In this document: positions 3,175 to 57,254 of the stretch, in pieces
Numbering within the stretch: the first letter of the stretch is position 1
Layout of the letters: every line of letters begins with the position of its first letter
From: Paraspadella gotoi
Lineage: Eukaryota; Animalia; Chaetognatha
Direction of reading: 5' to 3'
DNA: 64,000 bases
Assembly: GCA_051294375.1 (NCBI GenBank)
Contig: CM119266.1
Span: 18,648,087 to 18,712,086, forward strand
The notes under the pieces: model-generated
What the model saw: the letters and a program-made list of their open reading frames with translations, nothing else
What the model was told of the DNA's origin: nothing
Databases searched by the model: none
Made by a program: the position numbers and the translations under genes

Positions 3175-6041
3175 TGTCTCTCTCTCTCTCTCATTTTCCC
3201 ATCCGCTTTCCTCTAACCCCCAACTGCGGTTCCCTCCTCATCCACTCTATATAAACCATCAAATCGCTTTAAAGTAAATATTCAAAATAAAATTAAAAAA
3301 AAAAGACAAAAAGGAAAACAAATTAAAAAAAAAGATAAAAAATAAGCTCCCCACTTCTGTTCCTTAATTCCAAAATCTAGTACCGCACCTATAATCTAAT
3401 CTCTAACTTTAATCCTAACCCTAATCCCTAACTAGAACTTAATCATCAACCCTTACACTAAACCCAATCCCTAATCTCTAGCCTGAAACCCTAAACCCTA
3501 ACCCTAATCGCAAACTCTACTCCTTAACCCTCACTTCTAACCTAATCTTTAATATAAAACTAATTCATTTTCGAATTTTAAATAAAATCAGGCGTTTTGG
3601 GAAAACGGGGGGGAAAATGGTCCCACGTTATAATTTTATTGTATAAATATTGTCGATAGATTTTTAAAATAAGCAATGAATCGTAAAAAGTCATGAAAGG
3701 TCAGGTTTAATACTTTTCACTAACATATAACAGGATTTAAATTTTTTAACTGGGAGAGAGAATGAGAAAGAAAAATATAAGAGAGAGAGAGAGACAGAGC
3801 GAGAGAGGGAGACATAAAAAAAGAGAGAAAATATTGAACTAATGAATTGCTTGTTTGCGGTTTGCTTTTTTTTTTCCCTCTCTTTTTTTTTAAAAAGCCC
3901 AAGGCTCAAGTTAACGCTTTGAGATAAGAGCGGCTTATAACAAGGATGAAACTAACTTAGACAAATGAACGAAAAAATTTGTCCGTGCGCGAAATTCGAC
4001 AGTCAATTAGTTAAGACAAACAAACAAATTTTTAAATTAAATTTTAAAAGACGAGTTTTGGGGGGAATTTTTGAGTCCCAATTATATAACTTCTGTTAAT
4101 GATAAATATACGTATATACATAGGTCAGATGCTATTGCAGAGTAGAGTATGGTGTTCCCCGATCTAATACTTGAAGGATTGGATTTTTTATCCAATTAAA
4201 ACTTCCTTGAAAACATTATATACCGTTTCATTAATAAAGAAGCCAGGTACTCTGGAAGTTTATAAACTAGGCCGTGAGACAATCTTGAATGAAAGCTTGC
4301 GGCGACTCGCTATGCAATTATCTTGTAAGAGGAATGGCGGCCTTAACCTGAATAAAGTGAGGAGCGAGATAGCTAATTAATTAAATTCTTATTAAATTAA
4401 TATTTTTTTTTAATATTTGTTGTACCAATTTCATAAACTTCTTAACCATTTTCACTCCATCCCTTACCAATTTAACTGACCTTCACCTCACCTTTCTCTC
4501 TCCCCAGGTCTGCCAAACCCAAGAGATTCCCCTCCCTCTCTCATCGCCTCTTCCCCATTCAATCTCGAGCAAATGCCTGACCAACGCAGCCGCCGCCGCC
4601 GCCGCCGCGCAGCCGCCGCCCGTCGACGCCGACGCGATGACGACGACGTCGACGACGACGACGACGACGGCGACGAACGAGTTGGAATCAGAGTCGGACC
4701 CTCTCGGCGTCCACAGCAACAACAACAGCAGCGGAGGCGGAGGAGGAGTCTGCAGCAGCAACAGCAAAACCGTGACGGAGCATAAGATCGAGGGACTCGG
4801 TTCGGGACACGAATATAAGGTAAGTTAAAGGTCAACCGATATGGGTGGGCCGTATTGGGTCAGGGAGGGTAAGCTCACGTCAATCGTGTACAGGGTAAGT
4901 TCCAAATAATTAGGGTCGGGACACAGGATCAAGGCAAAGTTGAGCAGAGTAGTGAATCGTGTAGTAAATCGAATAGAGAAGTAAAGCTGGGTGAGTTCAT
5001 TTGGGTAAGGCCATTAGGACGAGTCGGGGTCAGCTTATTCGAGTGAGAACCGTAATTACGAGGTAAAGTCAATTAGATTAGAATCAAGTTGTCCAGATAG
5101 GGACACGAGTACAGGGTAGGTTAGCATAGGGTGATAAATTGAGTTCAGAAAGAGAGTAAGGGGTTCTCTTACTCACCTTAATTCACCGTTTCTCTTAATC
5201 CTTAACAAACATTAACTTCTCTTTCACCTAATTCACCCCTCGATGTATTTCAAACAATTCTTAGAAATTGTATAGAATTAATTATTAATTTAATGAATAA
5301 CCTCAACTTCCTCCAGACTTTTGACAGACTTAGGGTTGTGTTAAGGCCTTCATCCCTCTAACAATATAATAATATAATGTAATAATATAATGTAATAATA
5401 TAATATAATAAGGTTTCCGCTTTTTCCCTCTCCCACCCCGAAGATCGAGGTGAGGTGTTGCCACAACGGGGAACGCAGCGAAGCCCTGATGGCGGTGGCG
5501 CGGACAGCGCCGAACCCTCCAGCGGCGCTGAGGGTGGAAGGAAGTCGGTGCGATCGGTTGGCGTTGAAGTGGAAGGAGTCGCCAGGGCAGCACTCTTCTT
5601 ACGAGGTGAGGGAGGGTTTGGATTGGATTGATTGATTGGTTGGCTGATTGACTGAATAAATGATTGTTTTATTTAATTTGTATTGATTTAAAAAAATTTA
5701 TTAATAGATTTGACTGAATTGACTGATGGGTGGTCGGTTTTATTACTGGATTTATTGATTTATATGTTTATTGATTTGAATTGATTTGAATTGATTTGAA
5801 CTGATTTGCTTTGCTTAAACTGAATGATAGGTCTCCTACTTCCCTGCGGACTCACCCGCCGATCGCCTCACCCGCTCCGTCGCCGCGGAACACGTGACTC
5901 TTACGAACCTGACGCCCGCGACGCGATACGCGGTCGAAGTGCGCAGCGTTAGCGGCAGACAGAAGAGCCGAGCGGCGCTGGTGACGCACGCCACCCCGGA
6001 AGCTGGACTCTCGCGCCACGGATCGGGTAAAGGGAGAGAGG

Positions 6042-17336: not shown

Positions 17337-17545
17337 AGTCGGGCATGGCCTAAATCACCCTGCCAATAATCATAACACCTTCAGTCGTGACCCGGTTGCT
17401 CATTGAGTAAAGCCATCAGCTCATGACCACTAGGTACCGGGTTCAATCTCAACTTAGTAAGACCCTGTGGGAAGCAAGAGGACGACCGTAGACCACTATG
17501 GAGGCGTGGAAAACCCTCAAGCCTGGTTCCAAGCCAGGACTGTGG
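17337..17545 (+). mobile_element. Repeat family C: tRNA(Met)-like head plus degenerate twister-like motif
   Basis: GACCCGGTTGCTCATTGAGTAAAGC..CTCATGA..GGTACCGGGTTCAATCTC, followed by GA GGA CGACCG TAG ACC AC ... G CCTGG T TCC AA GC CAGG. Second copy at 51273-51423 (-). Confidence 0.65.
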
Positions 17546-19559: not shown

Positions 19560-20030
19560 TACGGTTAAGGCACGGAGATGTACGGGAGGCCCGGGCCCAG
19601 GTTAGAGTTGGTGGAGAGGCACAGAGTAGAACGGGAGGCCCGGGTTAGGGTTAGGGTTGGGGGAGGGGCTGGTGGTTAATGCATCAAAGGTGGTTAGGGT
19701 TACGGTAGATGCACGGAGATGTACAAGAGGCCTGGCCCGGGTTAGGGTTAGGAGAGAGGCACGGAGTTGAACGGGAGGCCTAGTTTAGGGTTGGGAGAAA
19801 AGCCCATGGGTGATGTGTCGAAGGCAGTTAGGGTTGAGGCATGGATATGTTAGGGTTGGGGGAGGGGCCCGTGGTTGACGCGTCGAAGGTGGTTAGGGTT
19901 AGGGTTGAGGTACGGAGATGTACAGGAAGCCCGGACCTGGGTTAGGGTTGGGGGAGAGGCATGGAATTGAACTGGAGGTCCAGGTTAGGGTGATGGGAGA
20001 AGCCCATGGGTGATGTGTTCATCCCCGTGT
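19560..20030 (+). repeat. G-rich minisatellite with embedded TTAGGG units
   Basis: Recurring ~45-50 bp subunits GGCACGGAGATGTACGGGAGGCCCGG joined by GGTTAGGGTTAGGG. Confidence 0.8.
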
Positions 20031-22539: not shown

Positions 22540-22575
<36 letters not shown>

Positions 22576-22582
22576 CTCTCTC

Positions 22583-22616
<34 letters not shown>

Positions 22617-25600
22617 AAATGTTATTTGAAAATCCAAAAACTGAATTGTGAAAGCGTGTGAGGCTTGCATTAAAGCCGAAACATGTCTGTTTAAATCTTT
22701 TAAATCGTTGTTTTAAAAAGACTTCGTCTTTAATTTCAAACTCAACTTAGAATTTCAAAAATATTTTAGATTGAAAAAAATATTTAAATGTTTGGTTTAT
22801 TTTTTTTAGTTTACTTTGTTTAATGTATTATTTTTTAAACTCAAATAATTGTTTCACTTGTATAATTTTTTCAACTTACATAATTTTTTTAGCTTGTACA
22901 ATTTTTTTCAATTTGCATAATATGTACATATATATTTACATATATATATATACATAAACATATACATGTAGTATGTACTTGAAGTTCGGACAACTCTTTT
23001 TCGTTGGCTTTGGCGTATTCTTCCAACAGCATGACAATTCCACGTCGTTCCAGGGCGCGCGCCAAGTCGTAGACTGAACGTCCCTCTTTGTTGGGTACCA
23101 TAACATCCGCTCCTCTATTAATGAGCGTCTTAAAAAAAAGATAAGTTAAGAGCCTCTTAAGCATGAAAAAATAATTTATTTTTAAAAACAAATGAACGTG
23201 ATGTCTGATTTTAATACCATGTTTAATTTGTCAGATTAGTATATAAATAAAATCTTTTAGAAATAATTTTGTACTCATAATACAATTTTTAAATCTTACT
23301 CATTATTTTTTCAAACCAGTTTTGTTCATAGTAAATAAATAAATAAATAGATAAATAAATAAATAACTGGCTTCCTTTTTCAAGAGGAGACCCTTCGATC
23401 CTCCTCCTCCTCCTTTCACGCCCGATGAGCCTCTTTCCTTTCATTGTTTTGGACTTAGAGAGTTAATAAACGAGACTGTGAGAGTCTTGATTGAAAGCTT
23501 GCAGGGACCTGCTATGTCATTATCTTTTAAGAGTGATGGAGGCCTTAAACCAGCAAAGCCTGTCCAATGTCAGGGGCAAGATAGCTTACTTATTAAATAA
23601 ATAGATAATTCATATATTGGTTGTGCCAATTCTATAAAATTCAGCTCCTTGTATTTTTATGCTGGACGGAGTTCAATATAGTATTCCCCGATCTAATACT
23701 TAAGGGAGTGGTCTTTTCATGCATTTGAAACATTCTTTTAAATATTATACCACTTCATTGTTAGGGAAGCCAGGTACTTTAGGAGTCCGTCTGTCTAGCT
23801 TTGAGCGCCAATTACTCATGAGTTTATCAGGTGATTGACTTCAAATTTTGTAGGAGAGTGTGTGATTGAGAATTTTTGATGGAATCGTCCGAGTAGAAAT
23901 AAGTTTAAATAGAAAAAAACAAAAAAACCTGTTTTACTATTTAAATATGCTATTTTTTCTTTTTAAATTGAATGTAAATGCAAACTACATTAATTAATCA
24001 ATCAATCAATCATAGTCAGTGTTATAGTCGTCATCGCCATCAGTGTCGTCGTTACTTTTATCGTGGTCATTGAACTGACAAAAAGACCTAAAAACCAACA
24101 AGATAATTAATTATCATTTAATTAATTGTTTAATTAAATAATTACCGGTAATGATCGTAGGCAACAGGCTCAAACTTGTTACAAAGATAAGTCAAAAATC
24201 AGCAATGTCGCACTTTAAAATACCTGAGCAATAAGGCCCTTGTTAGAAATTGTGGCTAGCATTAAAGGTGTCTTCAGGTCTTTGTCCACACGGTCTATCT
24301 TTGCTCCATAACGAATGAGAACTTCGGCTATTCCTTCTGTCCGAACGCCTACGAGCGCACACCTGTCCAATTAAAATATCCAGCTTTTTAAATCCTTTTC
24401 ACAAAAAATTAAAGCCATTGATTCCATTTTAATTATGAATATCTCTGCGGTTTCAAGAAAAATCAGGAGTTTTTAGAAACCGATATAAGGCAGATAATTT
24501 TTTAATACACAATGTCTACTACAAACTTACATACCAACCGTAACCACCACAAAACTTATTTCCTTATTTGAAATCTTAAAATGAATTAAAATTTTTTAAA
24601 ACATTTTTAAACATGATTATTATTATTATTATTATTATTAAATTGGTACAACCGATATAAAAATTATCCTTTCATTTAATAAATAAGCTATTTTGACCCT
24701 GACTTTGGACAGGCTTTGGTGGTTTAAGGCCTTCATCACTCTTACAAGATAATGACAAAGCAGGCCTCTGCATCTGCCTCTGCATCTGATAATTACCGCT
24801 AAATTACCCTTAGTCGATCCGACATGGTTTGTTCACTGTTCACTGTTCAATGTTCAGACTTGTTAGTTTTATAAATGCCGCCAGCAAGAACCTTTCTTTC
24901 TCTCTCTATCTCTCTCTTTCCCTCTCTCTATGTCTGTCTCTCTTTCATCAAAGAAAAAACATGACTATTTTTCAAAATAAAATTACTTGTTTGTAATCTT
25001 TAAAATAAACATTTCCATTGTAAATAAAAATCTTTAAAATTTCAAAAAAAATTTTTATATAAATATATTGCAATTTTTGTTTTTATTCGCATTCTAATAT
25101 ATTTTTTGTATATGATGATAAATACTTATCAGTGCCTTAACTAGTAACTACTACTACATTTCTTCTAAAGTATAAATGCTCCGATTATTCCGACAAGGTT
25201 CTTTTAAATACTGAAAAAACAGGTTTGAGCAAACAATGTCGGATCTGCCCACGATCATTATCGGTAATTTATTAATTAATAATTAATTTATAATTAATTA
25301 ATTCAAGTTAATTATTTAATTAATTAAGCAATTAATTATTTATTTTGATCCAAAATGTTTCTTTTTATTAATTAATTGACTGATTAATTAATTATTTATT
25401 AATTAATAGACTTATTTATTAATTAACTGATTAATGCATTTACATTTAATATAAAAAGAAAAAAGCATAATCAATTAGTGAAACATGTTTTTTGTTTTGT
25501 TCCATTTAAACTCATTTCCACTCAAATGATTCCATTGAAACTTGATTTACAGCTTAATCACACAGTTTTCTACCCACATACAAAATTTCAAGTCAATAGC

Positions 25601-28600
25601 CCCATCCACTCATGAGTAATTGGTATTCAAATAGTGAGATTTTTTTTTCCATTTAAACTAATTTTCACTCGGACGATTCCATCAAAACTTGATATCCAGC
25701 TTAATCACACACTTCCCTACCCACACACAAAATTTCATTCAAATCCATCCATCCAATCACGAGTAATTGGTGTTTTTTGCTAAGGTGGGACGAACATACA
25801 GACAGACGGACGGACGGACATCATTTTTTTTTTGGCATAATTTATCATAATTCGATGTTCTGACATGATATAAGTGAATGCCCGACAAGATTGAGGGGGC
25901 GGACCGACGGACCGACAAAGTGAATTATAGAGTCGGGATCTGCTGATAAGCAGATCCGACTAAAAAGAGTGCATAACGCTCAACAGCAACCTGTGAAGTG
26001 GAGACCATCCCTGGTTGTCCAATGCCTCTGGATTGGCCCCATCACCAAGCATGTACTCCATTAATTCCGTATTTCCACTATCTACTGCCCAATGAATAGC
26101 GTAAAGGTGGGAGGAGTCGTAGCTGTTAGCCCAAGAAAGGTTAATATCAAATAATAGGTTCTTGAGTAAAAAAAAGAAAACCGAGTTTCTAACAATTCAT
26201 AAGAAGCCTCGAAAAGACGCAAACACTTTAAGGCCTTTAATTGTCCAGAATAACAGGCAACCATCATTGCAGTTCTTCGTTGTTCCCGAGACTGAAAGTT
26301 TGGGTCAGCACCTCGTCTCATTAACGCCTGCATAATTCTAGGGAAACAAGTTTATTATTATTCATTAGAAGACGGTGATAATGTCTTTTTAGCCGCATCT
26401 GCTAACGGCAGATTCCTTCTCTATAACTCTCTTTATTACTTATGAAATAAATACAATCAATATATATAACATTTTGAATTAGAAAAAAAAAATTTATGCA
26501 TTATCTTTTTGAGTGCATATGGCATATTGTTTCAACAATTTGTTGTTAAGGAATAATATAATGAATAAATAAATAAAATAATAAAAATTAGATCCAGGAA
26601 TACTATATTCTACTCCGCAAAATTGAACTGAAATTGGTAAAATGAATAAATTAATTATCCAATATCCATTCATTGAATAAATAAGCTATCTTGCCTATGT
26701 TAATAGACTTCATATGGTGGGTTAAAGCCTCAATCCCTCTCAAAAGATGTAATAAAAAGCAGGAATCTACAGGCTTTCTTTTAAGACTCTCTCACAGTCT
26801 AGTTTATTAACTCCCAGAGTACCTGTCTTCCCTATCATTGAAGTGGTATAATTATCTCGCTCATTTTTAGTCTTTACTTGATCTTGTCCTTGAGCGCAGC
26901 ACGCATTAGCGGGGACATTCCTACTGGATCCTCGGCATTAGGATTTACTTCTCCCGTATCCATGATTTCAATCAACCCCTATAATTATGAGAAACATAAC
27001 AAATCATAACTAGATCATAACATTATAAATCATAACAGGTTTCTCAATTAATCAATTAAAAAATTATTAATCAATCATTTAACCAAATTAACAATCAATC
27101 AATCAATCAAGTAGAGAGAGTAACTTTTAAAAATAAATATAAATGTGTCTGTTGGTTTTCTAATTTAAACTTCTACGATTCCCATCAAAAATTTATATCC
27201 ATCTTTCATTTCAATTTATCAATCCGATTTTTAATAAATATAATAATTATGAGTAAATATAAGTAAAAATTTTAAGTAAATGTGACTTGAACCAGCCTCT
27301 TCAATGATCCCAAACACGCAAACCGGGCCTTTGATGTTATTTTAGCTACGCAATGGCCACCAGAATTAAGAGAAGGTTCAGAGGAGATGTTAATGGAAGT
27401 CATTTCGATGTATAAAGAAATGAATAGGCGTCTCGATTATCAAAAAGGTTAATTTACGTAATACACAACATTACCACACACGTTAAGGTCATCCAAGGCA
27501 ATCTTTTGGAGTACGTCCAGTACAGAATATGGTGACCTCTTTGTCTCGACCAACAAAGTTTCTGACCACAAACTATGAATATTCTGTTCATGGTCGAAAG
27601 CGCGAAGCCGGAACATATAAGCAGTTAGAGGTTTTAAGTTTTCCACCACAAACGACATCCCATAACTGCATAAATGAGGATAAATATTTTCTGAATTTCT
27701 CGAATTTTAGCAAGAAAATAGCTAGTCTATACTGACGTTCGTTAACACTGAACAGCATTTCCTTTTCTGTCATTTAATTAATGGAAAAATGCTTGTCCGT
27801 CTCTTTTTAAACTTGTATAACTAATATAAAATTTATCCTTTTGTAATGACGTAATATCACTATCCAATGGATATAATGGGTCCTATCATCAGCGCTGTAA
27901 TAGCATGGTTAAGGATTTATCACTTAAATTCTGAACCCAATGGTCCCGGGTTTTAACCCTGATCGGAATGGTCCTCGCTTTAGAGAGACGGGCCGGTTGA
28001 ACCGACGTTTTTAAAAGCGAGGCAACTGACGGGAAAAGCTCCCAAACCCTCAATAAAATATTGATCAGATTTTTACATTCTGAAATAAAATACAAAACAG
28101 TCTTTTTAGCTCTGTCTTTGTTAGCCTCCTACACAAAGGAGTTATAAAAATAATTTGATTCTAACTCACGACGTAATAAATTAAAATATATGAAATAATA
28201 ATTTCAACATAATCACATATGCACATTATTCAATCTTCTGAATTCTGATGTTATTTTTTGACCCAAAAGTTCCAGATTTCACCGCCTAATTTTCCTTCTT
28301 TAATCTTTATCTCTCAAACTTGGCAAAAAAAAACTTGTAAAACCCACTACTAATTGCTTAATACTAATTTATTATATCCTGCGCAAATCAAATTTTATTT
28401 CATTTTTCAAAACCACCTAAAAAAGCTAGTGAAGAGTTAGTAATAATTGTTAAGAATTAATGAGAGAACCGTTCAATATAAGCAGTACCTGAGCTTCGGA
28501 TCAGGCTGTAACACCTTGTTACAGGCGGGAAAAGCGCCCCGTCCCTCTTAACTGTTAGGCGACCACCGGGCTAGAACAACGGACCTTTGGGTTGGGAGGC

Positions 28601-29539
28601 AAATGACTTGCCTCCATCACCAATGGCCACTGATGAATGGTTGGTGGATTTTAGTCCACCATACATCCCCCCTCCCATAGGGAGAAGTCTGTTGCTTCTC
28701 TTCAGTGAATTGTTGGTGGAAAGTACGTCGCCAGGTTGAGGCATGTCGCTTGAAAGTGCTGTTGTTGCTGTTGTGTTCAGAAGTTGAGCTCACCAATGAA
28801 GCGACAGTTATGTTATGAATAATGACAGAACCGTTCAATAAAAGCAGGATGTAACACCGTGTTACAGGCGGGTTAATCGCCTCATCCCTCTTAACTGTTA
28901 GGCGACCACAGGGCTAGAACCCCTTTGGGTTGGGAGGCGAATGACTTGCCTCCTGCAGCATTGGCCAATTATGAACGGTTGTTGGATTTTAGTCCACCAT
29001 ACGAGTAATCTGTTTCATCACAAAATTATTTCTTGACTCGCCTCTTCCTATCTTTAAAAAAATTCCATGGATTACTTCAGATTTTAATAAACTTTATAAT
29101 ATATCTATAATTTTTTTTAAAAGTAGGCTCTTGAAGTGACTGAAAGGAAAAGAAATTGCCGTGCCTCTCTGTAAGTACGAATTAAATATGAGATTGCTAA
29201 CTAGTATTCTCTTACCCTGTCCGTGCAATCGCCCAGTCTCTAATTGAATCTTTAGCTTTGTACTGAAGTGTATAGAGGCACCGACTATCTCCCACTGTCA
29301 AGAGAAAATGCTTGGTATTAATTCCGCCATTCGGATCAAGAAAGAGTTAGAACCGAGAATGATTTGATTTTCTCGCAACAATGTAAAAATTAATAACAAA
29401 ATGGTCAGATGCTAAGTCTCGTAAAAAGGTCAAAAANNNNNNNNNNNNNNNNNNNNNNNNNCAGATAACATGCGACGAGTCACGGGTCAACAAGTCAATA
29501 ACAATAAAATAATAGTTAAACTGGAGAGAGAGAGGAGAG

Positions 29540-29602
<63 letters not shown>

Positions 29603-32600: not shown

Positions 32601-33566
32601 TTGCTGGATTTTAGGCCACCATAATATGATTGTTTGCTGTGCCAAAGAATAAGACGACAAGGTAGAATCATAATCTTCTCTCAGAAAGAGAACCGGGAAT
32701 GATTTTTGTTCGGCGAATTGATCGTTGTATAGCAGATTCCGACTCTATAATCCACTTTGTCGGCCCACCACCCCNNNNNNNNNNNNNNNNNNNNNNNNNA
32801 TCCATCCAGCCAATCATAGTAATTAGAGTTTTTTACTAAGAGGGGGACGGACAGACAGACAGACGGACATCATTTTTTTTTTTTTGCATAATTTATCATA
32901 ATTCGATGTTCTGACATGATATAAATGAATGCCCGACAATATTGGGGGTGGTGGGCCGACAAAGTGGATTATAGAGTCGGAATTGCTATACAACGATCAA
33001 TTCGCCGAACAAAAATCATTCCCGGTTCTCTTTCTTGATCGTTGCCACAAATGGTAAGCTCCGACGTTCCCTAATAATTAATAACAAAATGGTCAGACGC
33101 TAACTCTCGTAAAAACGGTCACTCGTGATTCCTCCTCCGACTCCTCCTCCGACTCTCCGTCCTCCATCATCAATACCAAATTGACTCAACGTATTACTAT
33201 CCATGCTTCATCTCCAGATGAGGACGAGGACACAACGACGACGAAACCTATCAACATTCAACAACCCTCTTATTCTTAAATGTTAGGAACCATAATGATA
33301 ATATTTACTCACATTTTCATTGGTATACTTAATACTTTTCCAATTTCCAATTTTCCTTAATTGTTGAATTTTATTTTTTATTTTTAGTGCCATGAGTGCA
33401 ATTAGTCTTGCTCAATACTCATTTATTGTTTGAATGTCATATTGTTTCAAATCGTTTTATCTTTTTATCGTCTTAACTGTCAAATTGTCTCTTTTATTTC
33501 AAAAAAACAAAAAAAAAAAAAAACTCTTGGTAGGGGGATATGTGGACAACGATCAATTCGCCAAAC

Positions 33567-33632
<66 letters not shown>

Positions 33633-39600: not shown

Positions 39601-40485
39601 TCCCTGCAAGCTTTCAATCAAGACTCTCACAGTCTCGTTTATTAACTCTCTAAGTCCAAAACAATGAAAGGAAAGGCTCATCGGGCGTGAAAGGAGGAGG
39701 AGGAGGATCGAAGGACGAGGTCTCCTCTGAAAAAAGGAGCCAGGCAGATATTTTTAAACTAATTTCTTTCTTATTTATTTATTTACTATGAACAAAACTG
39801 GTTTGAAAAAAATAAAGTAAGATTTAAAAATTTTATTATGAGTACAAAATTATTTCTAAAAGATTTATTTATATACTAATCTAACAAATTAAACACGGTA
39901 TTAAAATCAGACATCACGTTCATTTGATTTTAAAATAAATTATTTTTCATGCTTAGAGGCTCTTAACTTATCTTTTTTTTAAGACGCTCATTAATAGAGG
40001 AGCGGATGTGATGGTACCCAACAAAGAGGGACGTTCAGTCTACGACTTGGCGCGCGCCCTGGAACGACGTGGAATCGTCATGCTGTTGGAAGAATACCGC
40101 AAAGCCAACGAAAAAGAGTTGTCCGAACTTCAAGTATATACTACATGTATATGTTTATGTATATATATATATGTAAATATATATGTACATATTAATGCAA
40201 GTTGAAAAAATTGTACAAGCTAAAAAATTATGTAAGTTGAAAAAATTATACAAGTGAAACAGTTTAAAATAATACATTAAACAAAGTAAACTAAAAAGAA
40301 TAAACAAAACATTTAAATATTTTTTTCAATAAAATATTTTGAAATTCTAAGTTGAGTTTGAAATTAAAGACGAAGTCTTTTAAAAACAACGATTAAAAAA
40401 GATTTTAAACAGACATGTTTCGGCTTTAATGCAAGCCTTCATCAGCGCTTTCACAATTTCAGTTTTTGGATTTTCAATAACATTT

Positions 40486-40561
<76 letters not shown>

Positions 40562-43500
40562 AAGAGAGAGAGAGAGAGAGGGGGGGGAAGGTAAGTTGCT
40601 AATCTAATCTCGCCAAGTTTTGTTACGGGAGTTAGAGACTCCTCCTGCAGCCGTCTTTTTGGGGGACGCCCGATCCGAGGAGATCGGACAGGGTTGCTGC
40701 AGGAGAGGCTGAGGCATGGGCATCCATTGCGTATCGGGAGGTCTCCGCCGGACCCGTTGAGTGGGAACAGGAGAGTCATCGTGCGCTGTGGTGGAGAAGG
40801 GCACTAAGGCATAAGCGAATCATAGCTTGGAGGGAGATCGAATTGTCATCTATCACGTTCAAAGACGGCTCGAGGGCTTTGATGTAAATCGCCTCTCTAT
40901 ACTCTTGAGAAGCGTTCGGGTCATGGGACAGCATATGACAGTCAGTTTCTCTCTGAAACAGATGGCCAGTATTTGCGGAGGTCACGGTAGGGCTTTTTGT
41001 GCTGCTGGAACCGATCTGACAGACTTCCCTGTCTCACCCACGTATGCTGCTGTAGCTAGGGTTGTTTGCCCGCCCGGCACAGGCCCGCCAATAGACGGCT
41101 CCTGATGTTTTTCGGTCTGGGGATTTTATCTCTCTTGGGTGGTAGGGGAGGGGGAGGTAACCCACGTTCCTAGGACGCCTCTGCTTAGTTTCCAGTTGCG
41201 CTGTGGTGGGCGTGTAGGCTGTTCGGACAGCAAGGTCCTGCCCTTCCTTCTGTGGTAGGGCGGTTGAAATTAACAAAATTTAAAAAATCTAAACTAGGTC
41301 ACTAGTATTTTGGTGTAATACGGTCTGCAGATTTAAATGTGATATTGAATATGTTTCCTACATAACATCTTCTTTGTCGAATTTTTTGATTTTTTAAGAC
41401 AATCAAAATGCACGCGATTTTATATTTTTACAAAAATTAATAATAAATGAGTTTTTTTAAATAAAATAACAATTTTTAAAGTAAAATTTATTTTTGAAAC
41501 AACCCAGGATATAAAGGAAACTGGTTCTATTTAATAAACACCAAATAACAAATAATGAAATCAACAGCATTTCAAGAATCAGCTTTATTGTCAAGGTTTG
41601 GGACAGAGCTTTAACGTGCATGGCAACGAGCAAAAACATAACGCATCGCGTCTCTCTTTCTCCGAAAACTTTGAAATGACGCAACAGTAACCTCTTTAAC
41701 TAACCTTTCCACACTTTGGGATGTGGCAGGGTATGTGACCTATTTCAAAGGTTTGTTTAAAAAACATATGAAGTTCTGTTTTGAAAAACATCTGCGGTAA
41801 GGATTGGTCAGAAAAAGCTTTTCCAATCGATCATTTCTGGAGATTTTTTGCAGACCAAATTTAGGCGAGGAACGGGCGAAAACTCTCGTAAATAACTTTT
41901 GTCCCCAACTCACTATTTCCGCGTATCTCACAAATTTTCTTCACCGCAAACTCTCTCTCGGCGCATCCGAACTAGACAAGAAGAGTGAGTAAAACTATTT
42001 CTGGATGAGGGTGCCAAGCTGCCGTCATAATTCGTTTTTTCAACAACAGCTTCGTATCTCATTAGGCAATTTCACGAAACAAAATTTCATTTTCTTTAAA
42101 AACGTGATGGGGACCCATTCAAAAGAGATGGGTTACATTTGATTGAGACCACATTGGGTAGTACAAGAGGATAATGTTGGGTTACAATCATTTCTAGATC
42201 CTTTTTAAACTTGGCTTTGAAAAACTTGATTTTTACTGACAAAGAGGCGAAGAAACGGTTTGTGCTGTTGTCAGCCACCGTGAGTGACTGATGGGTCCCA
42301 GGCTTGAGACTTAAGCAGATTGTTCGTCGACGGTTTTCCCATTATCATCCTCACCATGCGATAACATAGTGTGGTCGTAGCTGAAGATCATTGACGACAG
42401 CGTCGGAAGTATGAGGAAATTAAGAGCGTTGGGAATTGAAGATTCGTTGAAGTCGGGGTTGAACTTCCAGTCTTCCAAACGAACCTTTCCAATTGCTTTA
42501 CCAGGATCACCTGAAAATTTAAAAATATTGTAGCAATAATTCAAAAAGTTCACAGCATTCCTAACAAAAATAACTTTTCACGCTATTAGTCCCTAAGGTT
42601 GGCGTTTGAATCAATTTCACAAGGAGAGAGAGAGAGAGAGAGTGGAAAGAAATACATGTATAAGTTTGGATCATGAGAAGTGGGTATAAAAAATTTTAGT
42701 ATCAAATGACAGATAATATTTTTTATAACTCCATATGCATTATTTTAGAGATGGTTGGAATATTTCGTTCCTCATTGAATAATGATGCGAAGGGGCAATT
42801 CGTTCGTGAGATGAAATTTTGTGTGCGGGAAGGAAACTGTATGGAATAAATGGAATAAATGTATAAATGGAAAATGATGATCCTAAATGAAAAATAACAA
42901 TAAAAAATAAATACTTATTAAAAATAAAATTAAAAAAAAAAAAGAATCGTTATAATTATTCATCTGATTAGCTGTTAACCGCTAAATTATCGTGGGCAGA
43001 TCCGACATTGTTTGCTCAAACTTGTTTTTGTCGCGCAGAACTGTTTTTTCAGTAACTTTTTAAATTATTGACAAACTGAAGCATTTAAATATTTGAAAAT
43101 ACAAAAGAAATTGATATTTTTTATTTTCCCAAAACGGTAATTACCATCAAATTATTCGGACATTATTACAGTAAAAAATGCTATAATGGAGAGTCACTAA
43201 AAGAAAACAGTGGTAAGGCGGCAGTATAGCATACACTAGGCAACAGATGATTGTTCTGCAACAGATGATTCTTCTGCGACAAAAAACTTTCAAGACCTTT
43301 GTTATCTTACGTTTTTCTGCGAGGAGCGATGCTTTTTTCTTTGCTTTGGCTAAATCTTCTTGCATTTCGTCTTGATTCTTAACTGATAAAGTTAAAGTTA
43401 CAAGATTACTTGTTTTACCATATCTTTAAGGAAAATTGTTTTTATATAGTTATAATTTTAATAAATTAATAAATTTTAACTTATTACAATATATCTTAAG

Positions 43501-46500
43501 ATTTTGACAGTTATATTTCAATATCATTTACTTTTAGAATATTTATGAATATTGTAAGGAGTGAAGGATATCGAGGAATTATGCATATTTAAGCGTATGT
43601 TAAAAGTAAAAATCCTAAATTTAATTTTATTTAAAATTCTAATAGTGAGGAAGACATTGTTATAAACTTTCTTTTCGTTGTGTGATATAATTAGATACAT
43701 TGTGCAACGTACAACAAAGATAAATATTTTTAAAAACTTAATAATTATTATATATATATAAATATTATTAAGTGTTAACAATTAGCTAATAATAAATAAA
43801 TATGAAAATGAAGGAAAAAAATGAAATTTGAAAAAGATACTGTTGGTGAGGGATAGATAAGTAAGTGATTTTTGAGCTCTATCTAAATTCTTAAACTTTC
43901 ACTTTATCACTCACTCAATGTGTCCTTACCTTCAGCCTGTCCTCACCTCTGACCACTATTCTTTACTCAACTCTATGTCGGAAATCTTTTTGCCCTCCCT
44001 CCCTCTCTCTTTCTCTCTCTCTCCCTCTCTCTCTCTATCTTCTTGCATATGATTTGCTTATAATTTTCAAAACCAAATTTAACGATAATGTAAGCCGAAA
44101 CATGTCCGTTTTTCTTTTTAAAAATAAAAATCGTTGTTGAAACTCATTATTCAAACCTTTTCTCTAATAGTGAGGAAAGAACAAAATAGCACTCATGAAT
44201 ATTGATATATAAAAAAATTTTATTAAGAATTTTAAAATTAACGCTGTAGGCTATAAATGTCAAAATTTTAAAATGGTTTTTGTAATATTTTTTGCACATT
44301 TGGATTTGTATAGTATTTCCCGATTTAATGCCTAAAGGAGTGGTCTTTTTTTATAATTAAAACATTCTTTGAAACATTATACCAATTCATTGATAGGTAA
44401 GCCAGGTACTCTGAGAGTGAGTAAACCAGACTGTGAGAGAAACTTGATTGAAAGCTTGCAGGGACCTGCTATTTCATTATCTTGTAAGAGTAATGGAGGC
44501 CTTAAACCACCAAAGCCTGTCCAAAGTCAGGGACTTGATAGCTTATTTATTAAATGAATGGATAATTTTTATATTGATTGTACCAATTTCATAAAATTAT
44601 TATTCTTTATGAATTAAGGTACAATGATGGTACGTTGTTCATAATTGACTTTTATAATTTTTATACATTACATATGTATACAACACATCGTTAATAAACT
44701 TTCTGTTTGATGCTTCAAATTAGATATACATGATTCTTGTTAGGAAGTCATTTATTGAAAATTAAAATATCTAAAAAGTTTAACATAAAGGGTGTGGAAT
44801 TGACAATTTGTTTTGGGATTAATAAAGGATATTGAAGAGACCGTAATTATTATGCGTTTGTGACAAAACCGTTCAATATAAGCAGTCCCTGATCTTTGGA
44901 TCAGGCTGTAACACCGTGTTACAGGCTGGTAAAGCGCCCCGTCCCTCTTGACTGCGAGGCGACTACCGGGCTAAAACCCTGGACCTTTGGTTGGGAGGCA
45001 AATGACTTGCCTCCTGCACCAATGGCCGTTGCTGAACGTTTGCTGGATTTTAGGCCACCATAATATGATTGTTTGCTGTGCCAAAGAATAAGACGACAAG
45101 GTAGAATCATATCTTGTTAGAGGGATACATAGTTACATATTAGGGAAAGTAATTTCTCTCGAACTTGTTATTCATTGTCTAAAAATCATCCTAACTGCGT
45201 TTCTTCGTAAGGTTACCAATTAATTCATAATCGGAATGTAATCACCTGCTTCCTCTGAAGATTCCTCCTCCTCAAATTCGTACCATTGAATTTCTATGCT
45301 AAAATGAGTGACTTTAATAACTTGCAGCCTTGGACACAGGATATCGCCCACCACCGATTCTTGCTGATAAAATTCTTTCATATAATTTTGGGTAAAGATT
45401 TGACAAGTTTCATAAGATACAGGACTCTGACCAAATAGTTTTTATATAATAATTTAATAATTAATAATTTTTTAATTAAAAATCAGGTTGGAAGTTAAGG
45501 TTAAGGATAAGGTCATTGATGAGGCTAGTGATTAAGGTTAGGGATTAGGTTAATGATTATGTTATGGTTATGGATTAAGGTGAGGCATTAGTAATTAAGG
45601 TTAAAATTTAGCCATAAGGGTTTAGGGTCAAATTTCAAAATTAAATTAGGGTTTGAAATAAGTCTTGAGGTTTAAATTTAAAAATGTTTGGGTAAAATAT
45701 TAACGTTAAAATTAAATTCTGGGATAAAGCTACAGATATAAAGCGCCTGCACTAAAGCCAAAAATTCAGCCTACAAAAAAGTTTATAAAGAGATAACCAA
45801 TACCAGATTTTCATAAAATCAAGATTAGATCATTAATGCTTCAGTACCAAAAATGACTTTACAAGAAAAATGTCATTGTAACAATCCTGCCTCTTATGCT
45901 TACTGTAATATACAATAAGGCGCAGATCAAAATTTTAATAGTTGATCATGAATAGTCTTGTTCTAAAGAACAATATATATTTTTTTTATTAATTTCTTAA
46001 TTTTCGTAGTAGCCCATTTTTATACCATTAAAGATTAAATTTTTTTTCAGTTTTGAGAGCAGAATCGAATTGCTCAAAAAAAGTTAGTATAAGAATATGA
46101 AATTGGTACAACCAATATAACAATTACCCATTCATTTAATAAATTAGCTATCTTGCACCTGACTATGGACACTGGATAGGCTTTGGTGGTTTAAGGCCTC
46201 CATCACCCTTACAAGATAATGACATAAAAGGTCCCTAAAAGCTTTCAATCAAGACTCTTACAGTATCTTACACTCCCATTCTTAAAGAATTTGAGTTCAA
46301 CAGTAAGACAAAGGAACATTCAAAATAAACTTTATCTGCACCCACTAAATCTTCACTTGATCCTGCTCTTTAACCAAATAGCAATTATTTTTTTAAATTT
46401 TTAGTATCTTAAATCTTTTAAAAATTATTTTTTTGTTATTTTTTAACAAATATTTTTTATTCTATTTCTTATTTTAAGTATTTTTAATCTATATCATATA

Positions 46501-49500
46501 TCAAAACAAAAATGATTTATAAAATATTTTTACAAGTACAAAAATGTTATTAGTGCTGAAGTAACAGTTCAGTTTAAGCCCTTGAAAGTGATTTATTGTA
46601 TGTAATTATCCAGTTTTTGGTTAGGAAAAATTATTGTGAATGTTACATTATGTTTATTTTGACATACTCAAGATTTTTGTAGAATGGGAATAATTGACAG
46701 TGATGATAATGATTTCATAAAAAACGATGTAGAAAATGATTGGGAGGAAATTTTGTTTTAATAGACGCTCATTAAGTTGAGCTTGAGGAAACTGCTAAAT
46801 ATTATAAATTTAATATGCAGCTTATGATGTTGGATGCAGAGAATATTTATTACTGTTAAAACTATTTTCCAGCTGACTGCAACTCGATGTATTGTCAATA
46901 TAAATGACTTTTATAAAACCATCTGCATAACCATAAAATTCTTTCAATTAAAACCCTTAAAATCTGATATAATTGTTTTATTTTGAAAATAAAGACATCA
47001 TATAAAACTGCAAGAATTTCTGAATCCAATGAATACAGTAAATGCATTATTTAAAACTTTACCAATTACTGCATTGATTTGTAAAGTAACAGTACGCTTG
47101 AGACACTCTGTAATTAATGCGAAATATTAAGTCTTAATCAAAAATTCTTTTATTAAGTTAGCTAAAAATTTATTTTTTATGAAAATTTAGTCATAGGTTA
47201 ATCATAACAGTTGTTTTAGGATTTTGACCACATTTTTAAATTTTGACATCATTTGACATTATGAAAGTACTACTGGGCTACTGCAAAAATTAAAAAAGAA
47301 AAAATAATTTTTTTGTTTAAAAATGTTTACAGGTACAACCCAGTTCATGATCAAGTATTTGAATTTTGATTCTATGATTTTAAAAGTTTTGCTACGCTTT
47401 AATATACAATAAGTCTTAAAAGGCAAAGTAAAACATTTTATAATTATCTTCAAGTATAACTAGTAATAATTAACTTCATTAAATCCTTAGCAACTTTTTG
47501 AAATTTTATATATTAAGCTAAGTATATCCAATAAAATTATACGTTCAAGTGATAACCGGATATGATGCAGCTGTTGATTTTCTATCTTTTCGTGATGACT
47601 TCTTAGACTTGCTCTCTAAAATTTCATTCAAAGAATTAATTAAGTAAAATAAAAATTCTAAAACACCAAAAATTCTGAAAATCAGCATTCTAAGATTAAT
47701 GAATGAATACCATGGTTTTATTAAAAGTTCCTGTAAAACATTTTGTCAAATTTTGCAATTTAATCAGCAAGTTAAAATTTTTTTGTTTTGTTTTTTTCTT
47801 TATTTAAATGAGCCGTCTTTTAGCTAATTATGATTAAAAATGTATGTGTGACGTGAAACTAAAAGAAAAATTTTAAACATACAAAGAGATCCACGGGTAG
47901 CGATCTCAAATAAATGGTTGCAGCGCCCATACGTGCTATCTGTTGTTCATGATCAAGATTTAATTAGTTAAAAAAGTCTTGTTAATGTTTTGGGTACTTA
48001 TCCTATAAAACTTTTTCATTTCAAATTTTGCGCAGTAAAAACTGATTTTTCAAAACATAAAAAATCTAGTTTTTGATGAATTCTTTAAAACCGACTTCAA
48101 CTTGACTTACACCACTCTTTGCTAGTTTTAATATCTACAATGGCTAAGATGTTAGAAAACTAAAAGCCAGCTAGTAAATAAATTGCAATAAGCAAGGTTT
48201 ACTTTGAATAGCGGAAAGTTAAGGATAAAGCTCAAAAGCTCAATCTCAGAAAATTTGAAAATCGAAAAACTTTAAAATGCTACTGGGTCACTCAAAAAAA
48301 ATAAACATGACTTTTGAATATTTAGCAATATTGATGAAAACTTTATTCAAATTAGTTAATGAGCTGTTAAATTTCTTTTGGGAAGACTAAAGATAGAACC
48401 CTATAACTTATGGGAAAAATATAATTCAGGATCACCTTTATCTTTCTCTTCTTCGGCATTTAAAACTTCCCCCGACAAAACTGTGTCTGAATAAGTAAGT
48501 ATAAAAAACATAAACCAACTATTAAAAAGTTTTTTTCTTTTAAATATAATAACAACGCTTACGTTTTGATTGAGCCATTGACGTTATTGACTGTAGGAAA
48601 AAAATAACAAAATAACAAATGAGGACGGATAATAATTCTCGCGATTATTTCAAATCCGTTCTAATTCCTCCTAAAAGTTATGAAAAATATGTCGTCAGAA
48701 ATAAACAGTTTAGACTTATTAAATCTACAGTAAGGAAAATGCCACAAAAGCCAGCCCCGGTACCCTTGAAGAGTTAACAAGCAGTCCCTGAGCTTCGGAT
48801 CAGGCTGTAACACCGTGTGACAGGCGGGTTAAGCGCCCCGTCCCTCTTAAATGCTAAGCGACCACCGGGCTAGAACCCCGGACCTTTGGGTTGGGAGGCG
48901 AATGACTGGCGAATGAATGGCCGCTGATGAAAAAATAAAATGAAATAATCATAATGATATATAAAATATATATTATATAATTATATACATTCTTTTACAC
49001 AACTTTTAATTTAAAAATTTTGAATTTTCTAACCGCGCGTGCTTTCTCATCTTTACTCTTGACTTGCCGCTTGTGCTTTTTGGAAATTCCTTCATCACGA
49101 TGACGATGTTTTTTTAAAACCCCCACAATCGGTGTCCGGTTACCTGGCAAAAAAGTGTGTTGTACAAAGGGCCTTCAACCCTATCGGAGAGACAGAATAA
49201 CTTATAAATTAATGAATAAACCGTTCATACATTAGTAGTCGATGAGTATCGGATCAGGTTATAACGCCATGCGACAGGTGGGTTAAGCGCCCTTTACTTA
49301 AAGTGTGTCTAAAATTTAGAAATGTTTATAGCTTATTTGGCATCCTGCACAATTGACTTAGGCATAATAAGGTCTTTTGCCCAAATCTCATTGAATTTCG
49401 TTGAACACACTTAGCTCAACTATGAAAGGACTTTTGGATCCACTATGGATAGATGTCACAGATGCTAATTGATAATATAAATGGCCAAAGTAAAAAATAT

Positions 49501-51272: not shown

Positions 51273-51423
51273 GCTTGAAAGCAGGCGTGAGGTTTTTCCA
51301 TGCCCCCAAGACGGTTTACGGCCGTAATCACGCTTCCCGGTACCTATTGGTCATGAGCTTATCGTATTACTCAATGAGCCACCGGGTCACGATTAAAGGT
51401 GAACTTGTCGCATGGCCCGACTA
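51273..51423 (-). mobile_element. Repeat family C second copy
   Basis: Minus strand ...GTGACCCGGTGGCTCATTGAGTAA...CTCATGA...GGTACCGGG AAG CGT GA TTA CGGCCG TAA ACC GT C...G CCTGC T TTC AA GC. Confidence 0.6.
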
Positions 51424-55400: not shown

Positions 55401-57158
55401 ATATTTTTAATTAATAATAGGAAGTCCATATTTATGATCCATCTAAGGTTCTTTGACGGATCTTCAAAGTGGGACCGGTACTCACAACAGTTTTTCTGAA
55501 CACCCTTTACAAGTATCTCAACAGCAATCACAATTATCGGCTGTGCAATCTCATCTCAATTTTCAAAGGTAATTATCCTTTCTATCTATGAAATTGGTAT
55601 AATGAATATATTTACAGATTTTCCCCTTTTCACTATTGTGATCAGTCAATTTTTTCCGGAAATCTGTTCATCTCTGATGCGGACGTCTTCGCAGTCGAAG
55701 ATCCCGTTTCAGCTCCGAGACGGTTTTTTTCCTTTGGGAAGCCATGACATGGAGAGTTCTAGTGGCCGTAGCGCCTTTGTTTCCTCCACCAGTTCCAACA
55801 AAGGTGCCGAAGGTTTTAATGGCAATCTCCTCTCATCGTCTTCAACTGAATCTTCTCCAGCAAAAGTAAGTCTGGAAACTTCAAATATGAGAAGGTATAT
55901 ATTTAACTCTGCCCAAAAGGCAATACTCTTAATTCCGACCAAATTAAAATGTTCCTTATAGGATTAGCATTAAACATTTAGTAAATGTTTTATCGTTCTT
56001 AGCGATGAGAAATCCAGTTTTCTGAACAACTCACAAGTTTAACAGTCTTGTAATATCTGCAAGGAAAATCCAGTTGGTGGATTTTAGTCCACCATACTTT
56101 CCAAATTATTAATATATGACAATATGCTAATAAACGAAAACGATTTTTTTTGGTTTGGACAACAATTTATTTAAATGATAAAATATTTACGGACATGTTT
56201 CATACATGTGTCGTCACGCGACCATCCAGAACGACGGTCACGCGATCAGAAAAAAGTGGCTTATTCATATATTATTTGGTCATTTTGCGTAAAACCTAAC
56301 ATCGAAGTAATAAACCTTATTCTTCTTGTGCATATGTTTCTCGTGATCACGTGATAATCAGAAAATGCATCCACAAAAGAAATTTATATTATGACATGTC
56401 ACTTTATTTTATTTAGGATGAAAAACGGAGCAATAACGAAGATTGCATCGATGATACTGACCACAGTCACCGCTTAAGACTCGGCTTTGGCAGTCTGGAT
56501 TCTACGGGTGCATTAGGTGGAAGTGCTGGATTAACTTCATTGGGAGGCAGTACAGATGTTGATGCGCTCAGTGGGGATATTGAAAGATTTTCACGTAAAG
56601 TGTTTGTTGGCGGTCTTCCGCCGGACATTGATGAGGACGAGATTACAGCCAGCTTTAGGCGTTTTGGTCCGCTGGTTGTTGACTGGCCCCATAAGGCAGA
56701 ATCAAAATCGTACTTCCCACCTAAGGTAAGCTTTAAATTCTACATCATTGACTATTAATATGATTGAACTGTAGTACAGTCAACACTTTCCCAGAAGCAA
56801 AATTTTTGTAAGTATTTTTCTTATCAGGGTTACGCTTTTCTTCTGTTTCAAAACGAGGCTTCTGTTGGGTTCCTGATCGATGCTTGCCTAATTGATGGAG
56901 ATAAGTTATATTTTTATGTTTCCAGGTGAGTTTTAGTAGACTTTAGTTGTATTAAATAGAAAAATTTGATAATGTCAATGACTGAGTTTGGGCGTTTTTA
57001 CGAGGAAAAGTTTATGAGTTTCGCAGCGAGTACTTAACCTTTTTGTAACCTTTGTGGTTCGTTGTCAGTTATAATTCATTTTTCTTGTTTTTTTTTTTAC
57101 TTCGCAAAAAGCAAATCGTTAATGATTAAATATTTAATGCTTTCATTTTCTTCTATTT

Positions 57159-57254
<96 letters not shown>

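What the first reader, a model, noticed from the sequence alone, without database searches (positions are those of the whole stretch)
48780..48855. Permuted (P5-type) twister-like ribozyme shared by up to four unrelated short repeat families: candidate twister retrozyme system
Seen: the order P5 - AAG - P2' - GA - T1' - 6 nt - TAA - P2 - T2 - C(P3)G - P4 - T - T1 - AA - T2' - P4' - P5' recurs in family A (48780-48855), family B (24689-24751, 46149-46218, 23521-23583) and, degenerately, families C (17471-17540, 51273-51336) and D (27973-28022). Paired positions covary: T1 CCG/CGG in A, CCA/TGG in B, TCC/GGA in C; T2 GC/GC in A, AC/GT in B; P2 CC/GG in A, AC/GT in B; P5 GCAGTC/GACTGC in A, TATCTTGT/GCAAGATA in B, CCTCGCTTT/AAAGCGAGG in D. 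Unpaired GA, TAA and AA stay fixed. Known: this is the twister consensus (U^AA site, catalytic G in GA, two pseudoknots from loop 4) opened at P5. Described animal retrozymes use hammerheads, and eukaryotic twisters are mainly reported with non-LTR retrotransposons. Inference: these are non-autonomous retroelements processed by twister self-cleavage. I do not recall such a system being described.
Basis: partly seen in the sequence, partly recalled or inferred. Interest (0 to 1): 0.93.

Follow-up and report, generated by a model that had tools for sequence, protein, structure and literature searches.

The report
Twister-ribozyme retrozymes riding Naiad retrotransposons
Several short jumping repeats in this animal genome carry a twister-type RNA fold in which one helix is replaced by a six-letter palindrome, so they likely cut their own RNA, probably in pairs, and are likely copied by Naiad retrotransposons, a group reported to lack the usual self-cutting ribozyme.

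Summary
The motif is real, on the minus strand (48787-48848). It is a P5-permuted twister fold with both pseudoknots covarying across repeat families A, B and C. D is only a hairpin. A metagenome scan that left those bases free returned one fully paired hit, in a 974-nt circular or tandem contig, and its hexamer is a perfect palindrome. Family B is a very abundant ~320-nt unit with circularly permuted copies; A and C have tRNA-like heads. Published Naiad (Penelope-like) consensus sequences carry the same fold near their 3' ends in 8 of 47 ends read by eye, with palindromes at P1. Best reading: non-autonomous Naiad partners, i.e. retrozymes with a dimer-type twister instead of a hammerhead. Against: Rfam scores are below threshold, P2 is short, cleavage and RNA circles are untested, and no Naiad was shown in this genome. 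This scan noted the Naiad twister before on other DNA; ten literature searches found no report of it or of twister retrozymes.

The parts
48787..48848 (-). Family A twister-type core (P5 permutation), the only copy in the window with no violation of the descriptor
48832..48837 (-). Self-complementary hexamer in place of helix P1 (predicted intermolecular helix, -8.3 kcal/mol self-duplex)
48829..48831 (-). UAA; predicted cleavage between 48831 (U) and 48830 (A)
   Evidence: position inferred from the twister consensus (PMC5408937, PMC8501958)
48841..48842 (-). GA; 48842 is the predicted catalytic G
   Evidence: inference from twister structures (PMC5408937 section 11)
48780..48855 (-). Outer limits of closing helix P5 (48849-48855 with 48780-48786)
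48857..48924 (-). tRNA-like head of family A; B-box-like motif 48867-48877
   Evidence: (Rfam tRNA 14.4 bits, below gathering)
28430..28664 (-). Full-length family A copy: 5' hairpin lead, tRNA-like head, twister core with damaged UAA, ~50-nt tail (duplicate near 34461-34702)
28795..29002 (-). Family A copy with P4/L4 deleted (duplicate near 34125-34316)
44825..45062 (-). Family A copy with damaged UAA, T1 and T2 (duplicate 32420-32623)
49207..49292 (-). Decayed, 5'-truncated family A copy
56073..56097 (-). 25-nt fragment identical to the family A 5' lead (hairpin resembling the Naiad 5' motif)
23440..23786 (+). Family B wrap-around copy, slightly more than one ~320-nt unit; twister core 23529-23574, hexamer 23540-23545, Naiad-like motif 23660-23691 (duplicate 39304-39668)
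24627..24772 (-). Family B copy, core 24698-24743, one T1 mismatch (duplicate 38329-38474); Rfam Twister-P5 23.5 bits
44300..44605 (+). Family B near-unit-length copy, core 44486-44531, G of GA mutated (duplicate 31882-32162)
46096..46267 (-). Family B copy with a 7-nt insertion in loop 4
26587..26852 (-). Second wrap-around family B copy, decayed core (duplicate 36265-36529)
4129..4444 (+). Family B unit-length copy with a deletion in the core
5271..5376 (-). Decayed family B fragment; further fragments at 8397-8478, 14727-14809 and 17068-17137
17376..17545 (+). Family C copy: tRNA-like head (read by eye) and decayed twister core; hexamer 17483-17488 with one mismatch
51273..51401 (-). Family C copy: decayed core, P4' lost; hexamer 51319-51324 self-complementary
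27895..28022 (+). Family D: tRNA-like head with B-box-like motif 27949-27959, then a rod hairpin holding GA, a self-complementary hexamer (27992-27997) and TGA but no P4/L4; not a complete twister

Best explanation
Families A, B and C are short non-coding repeats that carry a P5-permuted twister-type fold whose P1 helix is replaced by a self-complementary hexamer; they are likely non-autonomous partners of Naiad-type Penelope-like retrotransposons, and the fold is predicted to cut the RNA at U^A, probably after two copies pair through the hexamer. Shown: the fold, its covariation, the palindrome, the tRNA-like heads of A and C, the cyclic ~320-nt unit and very high abundance of B, and the same fold variant in published Naiad 3' ends. 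Inferred steps: (1) read-through or tandem transcripts (Pol III from the tRNA-like head for A and C, host read-through for B) hold two or more motifs; (2) hexamers pair, so the 5' half of one copy completes the 3' half of another, as in double hammerheads; (3) cleavage frees unit-length RNA, which may be circularised; (4) Naiad reverse transcriptase/GIY-YIG endonuclease copies the multimer or circle into new sites, giving permuted copies without target-site duplications. My odds by step: twister-derived fold 0.92; catalytically active 0.7; dimer-dependent or dimer-enhanced 0.55; Naiad-driven 0.65.
For: Fold. Palindrome: hexamer self-pairs in 96.7% of 30 cells and all 3 pairs show two-sided changes; background for such hexamers in the window is 2.9%. 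Blind test: of 48 loci from six collection scans that returned loci, all with that region free (two searches found nothing), only L001 satisfies the twister pairings (penalty 0.5; the other 47 score 2 or worse) and its hexamer is a perfect palindrome; Rfam Twister-P5 hits it independently at E 0.014; L001 is a 1097-nt contig with an exact 123-nt terminal repeat. Family B genome-wide: 9017 contigs laid in run X1; at 23527, 23553 and 23568 nearly all depth carries the letter that completes P5, T2 and the AA; no variant reaches 5% in the hexamer; contigs in 4 of 4 runs bridge the tail-to-start seam, and in 3 of 4 the 23778-to-23480 joint is listed. Naiad link: 8 of 47 Naiad consensus 3' ends read by eye in File S5 of PMC8557442 show the fold with palindromes in the P1 position; 5 bivalve records share the AAG-N linker and 3-nt P2, and two have a 3' half nearly the same as family B. 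A motif common at Naiad 5' ends resembles the start of A and the seam of B. Precedent for dimer cleavage through a palindromic loop: minimal hammerheads (PMC6765202, PMC7229834, passages).
Against: No cleavage, transcript or circle is shown; the one run guessed to be RNA cannot be used. Rfam scores are below gathering and A is not matched. P2 has two sure pairs and an uncertain third, whereas the canonical stem has four and its length was suggested to matter (PMC5408937 section 11). Only 1 of 14 independent window copies is intact. Twister cuts at near wild-type rate without P1 (PMC5408937), so a monomer may suffice. In a Poseidon element hammerhead cleavage was not needed for insertion in vitro and no reads ended at the site (PMC11167929, passages). 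No Naiad was found in the window and the genome could not be searched; the one Penelope-like remnant here is of the hammerhead-bearing, C-terminal-endonuclease type. A shows no tandem junction. The Naiad motifs were read by eye, record names inferred from table order, and the 5'-motif patterns were fitted after seeing the sequences. In nearest-neighbour cofolding the hexamer duplex forms for B24 and L001 but not for A48 (pseudoknots not modelled).
Confidence: 0.58

Rival explanations
1. Same elements and an active twister, but it cuts as a monomer (a natural mini-twister with one base pair and a tetraloop at P1); the palindrome serves RNA pairing for packaging or template switching, not catalysis.
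For: P1 is dispensable for twister cleavage (PMC5408937); six bases are enough to span the P1 position (inference from the structure); in Naiad records the P1 insert is longer and could form its own hairpins.
Against: The hexamer's inner four bases are Watson-Crick self-complementary in A, B, C and L001 with different sequences, which a plain loop would not need; this is the pattern of dimer-cleaving minimal hammerheads.
Confidence: 0.2
2. The fold is a twister relic that no longer cuts; it is kept as a recognition or dimerisation signal for the Penelope-type reverse transcriptase.
For: Short P2, no intramolecular P1, sub-threshold Rfam scores; ribozyme cleavage was dispensable for a Poseidon element in vitro.
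Against: The bases that matter for chemistry (GA, UAA, AA) stay fixed while paired positions change across A, B, C, L001 and Naiad records.
Confidence: 0.13
3. Ordinary LINE-driven SINEs whose twister trims the 5' end, as in Perere-3 or the RTE elements mentioned as unpublished in PMC7761336.
For: tRNA-like heads in A, C and D; eukaryotic twisters are known from LINE 5' ends.
Against: Those are type-P1 motifs at the very 5' end with TSDs next to the cut; here the motif is P5-permuted and internal, sequence is conserved on both sides of the site, no TSD was found at 13 of 13 copies tested and B is cyclic.
Confidence: 0.06
4. Chance resemblance, or hairpins of a DNA-type element (MITE or Helitron-like) read as a ribozyme.
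For: A has fixed ends and a terminal hairpin; loose descriptors hit shuffled AT-rich DNA.
Against: Two pseudoknots covary across families; an independent hit and eight Naiad records keep the same order of parts; the fold lies in the same sense as the tRNA-like head.
Confidence: 0.03

Closest known systems
Type-P5 twister ribozyme (Rfam RF02684; reviewed in PMC5408937)
   Same: Order of parts, T1 and T2 pseudoknots, P4 with the U..AA loop, GA opposite UAA, termini in P5.
   Different: P1 is a six-base palindrome rather than a hairpin; P2 has a 3-nt strand with an AAG-N linker; scores are below the Rfam gathering threshold; found in animal repeats.
Animal non-LTR retrozymes (PMC7229834; bioRxiv 10.64898/2026.07.22.740005)
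   Same: Short, low-GC, non-coding ~320-nt unit with a ribozyme, permuted or tandem copies, proposed dependence on Penelope-like elements (family B).
   Different: Defined there by a type I hammerhead; here a twister-type fold. Circular RNA not shown.
Minimal and amphibian type I hammerheads that cleave as dimers (as reviewed in PMC6765202 and PMC7229834)
   Same: The helix next to the cleavage site is reduced to a palindrome that can pair between two copies.
   Different: Different ribozyme class; no natural dimer-type twister was found in the searches.
Schistosoma SM-alpha SINE-like retroposons (as reviewed in PMC6765202)
   Same: Pol III-type promoter plus a self-cleaving ribozyme in one short element (families A, C).
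   Different: Hammerhead, tandem arrays; A here has fixed ends and no tandem junction in the window.
Naiad Penelope-like elements (PMC8557442)
   Same: Same twister variant near the 3' end of 8 of 47 consensus ends read; similar 5' motif; partial-tandem copies; TSDs often not discernible.
   Different: Naiads encode endonuclease and reverse transcriptase and have a longer palindromic insert at P1; the paper reports no ribozyme other than lack of canonical hammerheads (twister: 0 occurrences).
Perere-3 twister variants (PMC8501958) and RTE 5' truncated twisters (unpublished mention, PMC7761336)
   Same: Twister with weak or absent P1 in an animal retroelement.
   Different: Type P1, at the 5' end of an autonomous LINE, TSD adjacent to the cut.

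Membership tests
Twister ribozyme, type P5 | Pseudoknots T1 (3 bp) and T2 (2 bp) from loop 4 | tested here: met
   86.7% and 85.0% of cells paired, two-sided changes in both
Twister ribozyme, type P5 | Conserved GA, UAA and loop-4 U..AA | tested here: met
   present in 48787-48848, in the genome-wide majority of B and in L001
Twister ribozyme, type P5 | Stem P4 and termini in P5 | tested here: met
   P4 89.7% paired; P5 71.2% with family-specific register
Twister ribozyme, type P5 | Four-base-pair stem P2 | tested here: not met
   two covarying pairs, third uncertain, 3-nt strand (PMC5408937 section 11)
Twister ribozyme, type P5 | Intramolecular P1 hairpin | tested here: not met
   six bases only, self-complementary; P1 is dispensable in vitro
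Twister ribozyme, type P5 | Rfam RF02684 gathering score 37.6 | tested here: not met
   23.5-24.9 bits for B, 24.2 for L001, no match for A
Twister ribozyme, type P5 | Site-specific self-cleavage at U^A | not testable with these tools
   needs in vitro transcription
Non-LTR retrozyme | Non-coding 150-450-bp unit, GC under 50% | tested here: met
   B ~320 nt, GC 0.33-0.36
Non-LTR retrozyme | Tandem or circularly permuted copies | tested here: met
   met for B; not seen for A; too few copies for C
Non-LTR retrozyme | Type I hammerhead in each unit | tested here: not met
   no Rfam hammerhead hit in the window; the unit carries a twister-type fold
Non-LTR retrozyme | Abundant linear and circular monomer RNAs | not testable with these tools
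   only contigs; no run on record as RNA
tRNA-derived SINE | tRNA-like head with B box | tested here: met
   A: Rfam tRNA 14.4 bits (weak) and B-box-like motif; D: B-box-like motif; C by eye; B none seen
tRNA-derived SINE | Target-site duplications | tested here: not met
   0 of 13 copies; copies are old and ends approximate
Non-autonomous Naiad (Penelope-like) element | 3' structure shared with Naiad pLTR/3' UTR | tested here: met
   same fold in 8 of 47 Naiad ends, 5 with the same linker and P2 (by eye)
Non-autonomous Naiad (Penelope-like) element | 5' motif shared with Naiads | tested here: inconclusive
   resemblance at A's start and B's seam; patterns fitted after the fact
Non-autonomous Naiad (Penelope-like) element | Autonomous Naiad with matching ends in the same genome | not testable with these tools
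   no genome held

The most novel reading that the evidence does not exclude
A natural twister ribozyme that works as a strand-swapped dimer through a palindromic P1 is the missing ribozyme of a large part of the Naiad clade, and it has been taken up by several non-autonomous families (a cyclic retrozyme-like unit and tRNA-headed SINE-like elements), giving twister retrozymes that make circular RNAs in animals and, judging by L001, elsewhere.
Probability: 0.4. Interest if true: 0.86.

Novelty: new variant of a known kind. Interest (0 to 1): 0.74.

Why it matters
Animal retrozymes are defined by hammerheads, and Naiads are described as the Penelope-like clade that lacks them. A twister in the same position, reduced in the same way (helix next to the cut replaced by a palindrome), would show that two unrelated ribozyme classes converged on a cut-only-when-paired design in Penelope-like elements. 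That suggests a dimer or tandem checkpoint is what these elements select for. It also explains why Rfam and hammerhead-based screens miss these elements, and gives a 60-nt natural RNA on which dimer-dependent twister cleavage can be tested at once.

Tried and rejected
No whole genome was held, so no genome-wide copy collection or Naiad search. A first strict descriptor gave 0 hits because it demanded a full P2, and its loose form hit AT-rich DNA widely; both were replaced. Family D as a twister: rejected. A tandem unit of 343 nt for the A pair at 28.4-29.0 kb: rejected, the 147-nt spacer has no other match and flanks do not align. TSDs: none at 13 copies. Exact A/B pattern in viral contigs and the free-hexamer pattern in prokaryote genomes: 0 hits; 43 further viral and prokaryote loci and 4 metagenome loci fail the pairings and score at most 12.4 bits with the model. 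A second ribozyme on the opposite strand of L001: none found; L001 does not fold better than shuffles (z -1.23) and has no similarity to the window outside the motif. Expression: no RNA holder listed. Genome-wide variation of family A was not obtained, so only B has read-based support. Exact hexamer-plus-UAA and loop-4 words in the Naiad supplement: no relevant hits among those shown; the motifs were found by reading record ends. Host group from the CPEB exon: animal only, not resolved. Pfam did not recognise the Penelope-like remnant. Roth 2014 and Lunse 2017 were not held.

Full report
OBSERVATION. The window is animal DNA (34% GC; CPEB2-4-type exon). The motif lies on the minus strand. With a fixed-geometry descriptor, 48787-48848 is the only window copy without a violation; 10 sites score 3 or better against 2 in 12 shuffles (geometry taken from these sequences). 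With a descriptor using only published twister features and a free P1 length, the window has 1 site, this one, against 0.23 per shuffle, all shuffled hits being AT-rich. Rfam Twister-P5 finds three B copies at 23.5-24.9 bits, below the 37.6 cut-off, and not A.

FAMILIES. A model built from 9 window copies and L001 gives 21 window hits above 18 bits; 7 are duplicates inside two segmental duplications, leaving 5 A, 7 B and 2 C. D is not hit and folds as a plain hairpin without P4/L4. C fits only when its two decayed copies are read together. On the 10-sequence alignment 84.8% of 191 cells pair and 15 of 20 pairs change on both sides, including T1, T2, P2 and P4; slid controls pair 31-51%. Cells count sequences, not events; the independent lineages are four (A, B, C, L001).

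THE PALINDROME. The six bases in place of P1 are self-complementary in A, B, C and D with different sequences; 96.7% of 30 cells pair and all three pairs covary; 2.9% of window hexamers have this property. To test it blind I scanned collections with that region free. The metagenome scan gave 5 loci; viral and prokaryote scans gave 43 more or none. Of these 48, only L001 satisfies the twister pairings, and its hexamer is a perfect palindrome unlike any in the window; 3 of the 47 failures are self-complementary only with G-U pairs. Rfam hits L001 at E 0.014. L001 has an exact 123-nt terminal repeat, so it was assembled from a 974-nt circle or tandem unit. Minimal hammerheads of Penelope-like elements and amphibians have the same reduction and cleave as dimers (PMC6765202, PMC7229834, passages).

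ANATOMY. A (about 235 nt): 5' hairpin lead, tRNA-like head (14.4 bits; B-box-like motif), twister fold, ~50-nt tail; four independent places start at the same base; no tandem junction and no TSD. C and D also have tRNA-like heads. B (about 320 nt, GC 0.33-0.36) has no such head. Two B copies (23440-23786, 26587-26852) run past the usual 3' end into the sequence that starts other copies. Laying contigs of four runs on 23440-23800: 9017 contigs in X1; summed depth 1.4 million over the fold against 33-50 at the flanks, roughly tens of thousands of copies (the tool warns this is no copy number); at 23527, 23553 and 23568 almost all depth carries the letter that completes P5, T2 and the AA, so the family majority is intact; no variant reaches 5% in the hexamer, though most of the core is equally uniform; contigs bridge the tail-to-start seam in 4 of 4 runs. 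X1 may be the source of the window; X7 is only guessed to be RNA and says nothing on expression.

THE LIKELY DRIVER. Two earlier notes of this scan (e1-6818684, e1-9132506) reported a P1-less twister in Naiad elements on other DNA. I checked this on the published Naiad consensus file (PMC8557442 File S5), reading about 600 nt at 47 of 54 record ends by eye. Eight show the fold: by table order Naiad_Mley, Naiad-4_Chem, Naiad-1_Movir (four-pair P2) and Naiad_Mgal, Bpla, Mphi, Scon, Mmer (AAG-N linker, 3-nt P2 as here). Each has a longer insert with palindromic stretches at P1, and Mgal and Bpla have a 3' half nearly the same as family B. Many Naiad 5' ends share a motif that resembles A's lead and B's seam (patterns fitted afterwards). 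The paper reports that Naiads lack canonical hammerheads and does not mention twister. No Naiad is in the window, and no genome was held. The Penelope-like remnant at 21681-22700 is of the hammerhead-bearing type.

MECHANISM. Shown: fold, covariation, palindrome, heads, cyclic B unit, Naiad counterpart. Inferred: multimeric transcripts; pairing of hexamers to give strand-swapped dimers; cleavage at 48831/48830; unit-length, perhaps circular RNA; copying by Naiad enzymes. Against: P2 is shorter than the canonical four pairs, whose length was suggested to matter (PMC5408937 section 11); twister cuts without P1, so a monomer may do; in a Poseidon element ribozyme cleavage was not needed for insertion in vitro (PMC11167929); energy-based cofolding forms the hexamer duplex for B24 and L001 but not A48.

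WHAT IS KNOWN. Animal retrozymes are defined by type I hammerheads (PMC7229834, passages; bioRxiv 10.64898/2026.07.22.740005, parts 1-2 of 5, twister 0 occurrences; its supplements are closed). Twisters in animal retroelements are type P1 at LINE 5' ends (PMC8501958, abstract and sections 17, 18 part 1, 22; an unpublished RTE mention in PMC7761336, passages). Twister-bearing circular RNAs are known from metatranscriptomes, type P1 in the passages seen (bioRxiv 10.1101/2022.07.19.500677), so L001-like circles could be in its supplements, which I could not see. Also read as passages without a matching report: PMC10085705, PMC8782182, PMC13725137. Roth 2014 and Lunse 2017 were not held. Ten searches found no paper on twister retrozymes, a palindromic-P1 twister or a twister in Naiads; subscription journals are mostly not covered. 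The tRNA A/B-box and hammerhead consensus used for by-eye reading are recalled.

VERDICT. It works like a twister and, for B, like a retrozyme, but fails formal membership of both (short P2, no P1 hairpin, sub-threshold score; no hammerhead). New variant of a known kind. The Naiad twister was noted before within this scan; new here are the non-autonomous families, the minimal six-base palindrome with a blind confirmation, and read-based evidence for a cyclic, very abundant unit. Interest 0.74.

Noticed in passing
window 21859-30386 / 32800-41266 and 30387-32677 / 42807-45115: An 8.6-kb inverted duplication (96%) and a 2.3-kb direct duplication (97.5%), with two 25-N gaps near the centre; possibly an assembly or haplotype artefact. 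It doubles many repeat copies.
   Followed up: partly
window 21681-22700 (+), duplicate to about 40400 (-): Decayed Penelope-like element with a C-terminal GIY-YIG-like frame (Atlas 0.91 to a cluster with PF01541 in 44% of members) followed by a minimal type I hammerhead with a palindromic hexamer; the core is intact in the duplicate near 40410-40445 (read by eye). A known hammerhead counterpart of the motif studied here.
   Followed up: partly
L001 1-1097: Contig with an exact 123-nt terminal repeat (974-nt circle or tandem unit), no long ORF, one twister-type motif with a palindromic hexamer at 395-439 (-). Candidate twister retrozyme from another, unknown organism.
   Followed up: partly
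window 56417-58089 (+): Exons of a CPEB2-4/Orb2-type gene (Pfam RRM_7); a 25-nt family A fragment lies 320 nt upstream of the RRM exon frame.
   Followed up: partly
window 19559-20018: 199-bp tandem repeat studded with TTAGGG telomere-type repeats.
   Followed up: no
window 18081-18370: Imperfect 290-nt self-inverted element with relatives at 15663-15980, 45922-46095 and 47129-47403; MITE-like.
   Followed up: no
window 8023-8105 (-): tRNA-Leu(AAG) gene.
   Followed up: no
PMC8557442 File S5 (not in the window): Many Naiad 3' ends without the twister share another conserved structured motif (oyster, hemichordate, Clytia records), and some carry hammerhead cores in permuted order; a second conserved motif sits at many Naiad 5' ends. 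Either may be a further ribozyme.
   Followed up: no
window 27895-28022 (+): Family D keeps GA, a palindromic hexamer and TGA inside a rod hairpin behind a tRNA-like head; it may be an internally deleted member of a fourth family.
   Followed up: partly
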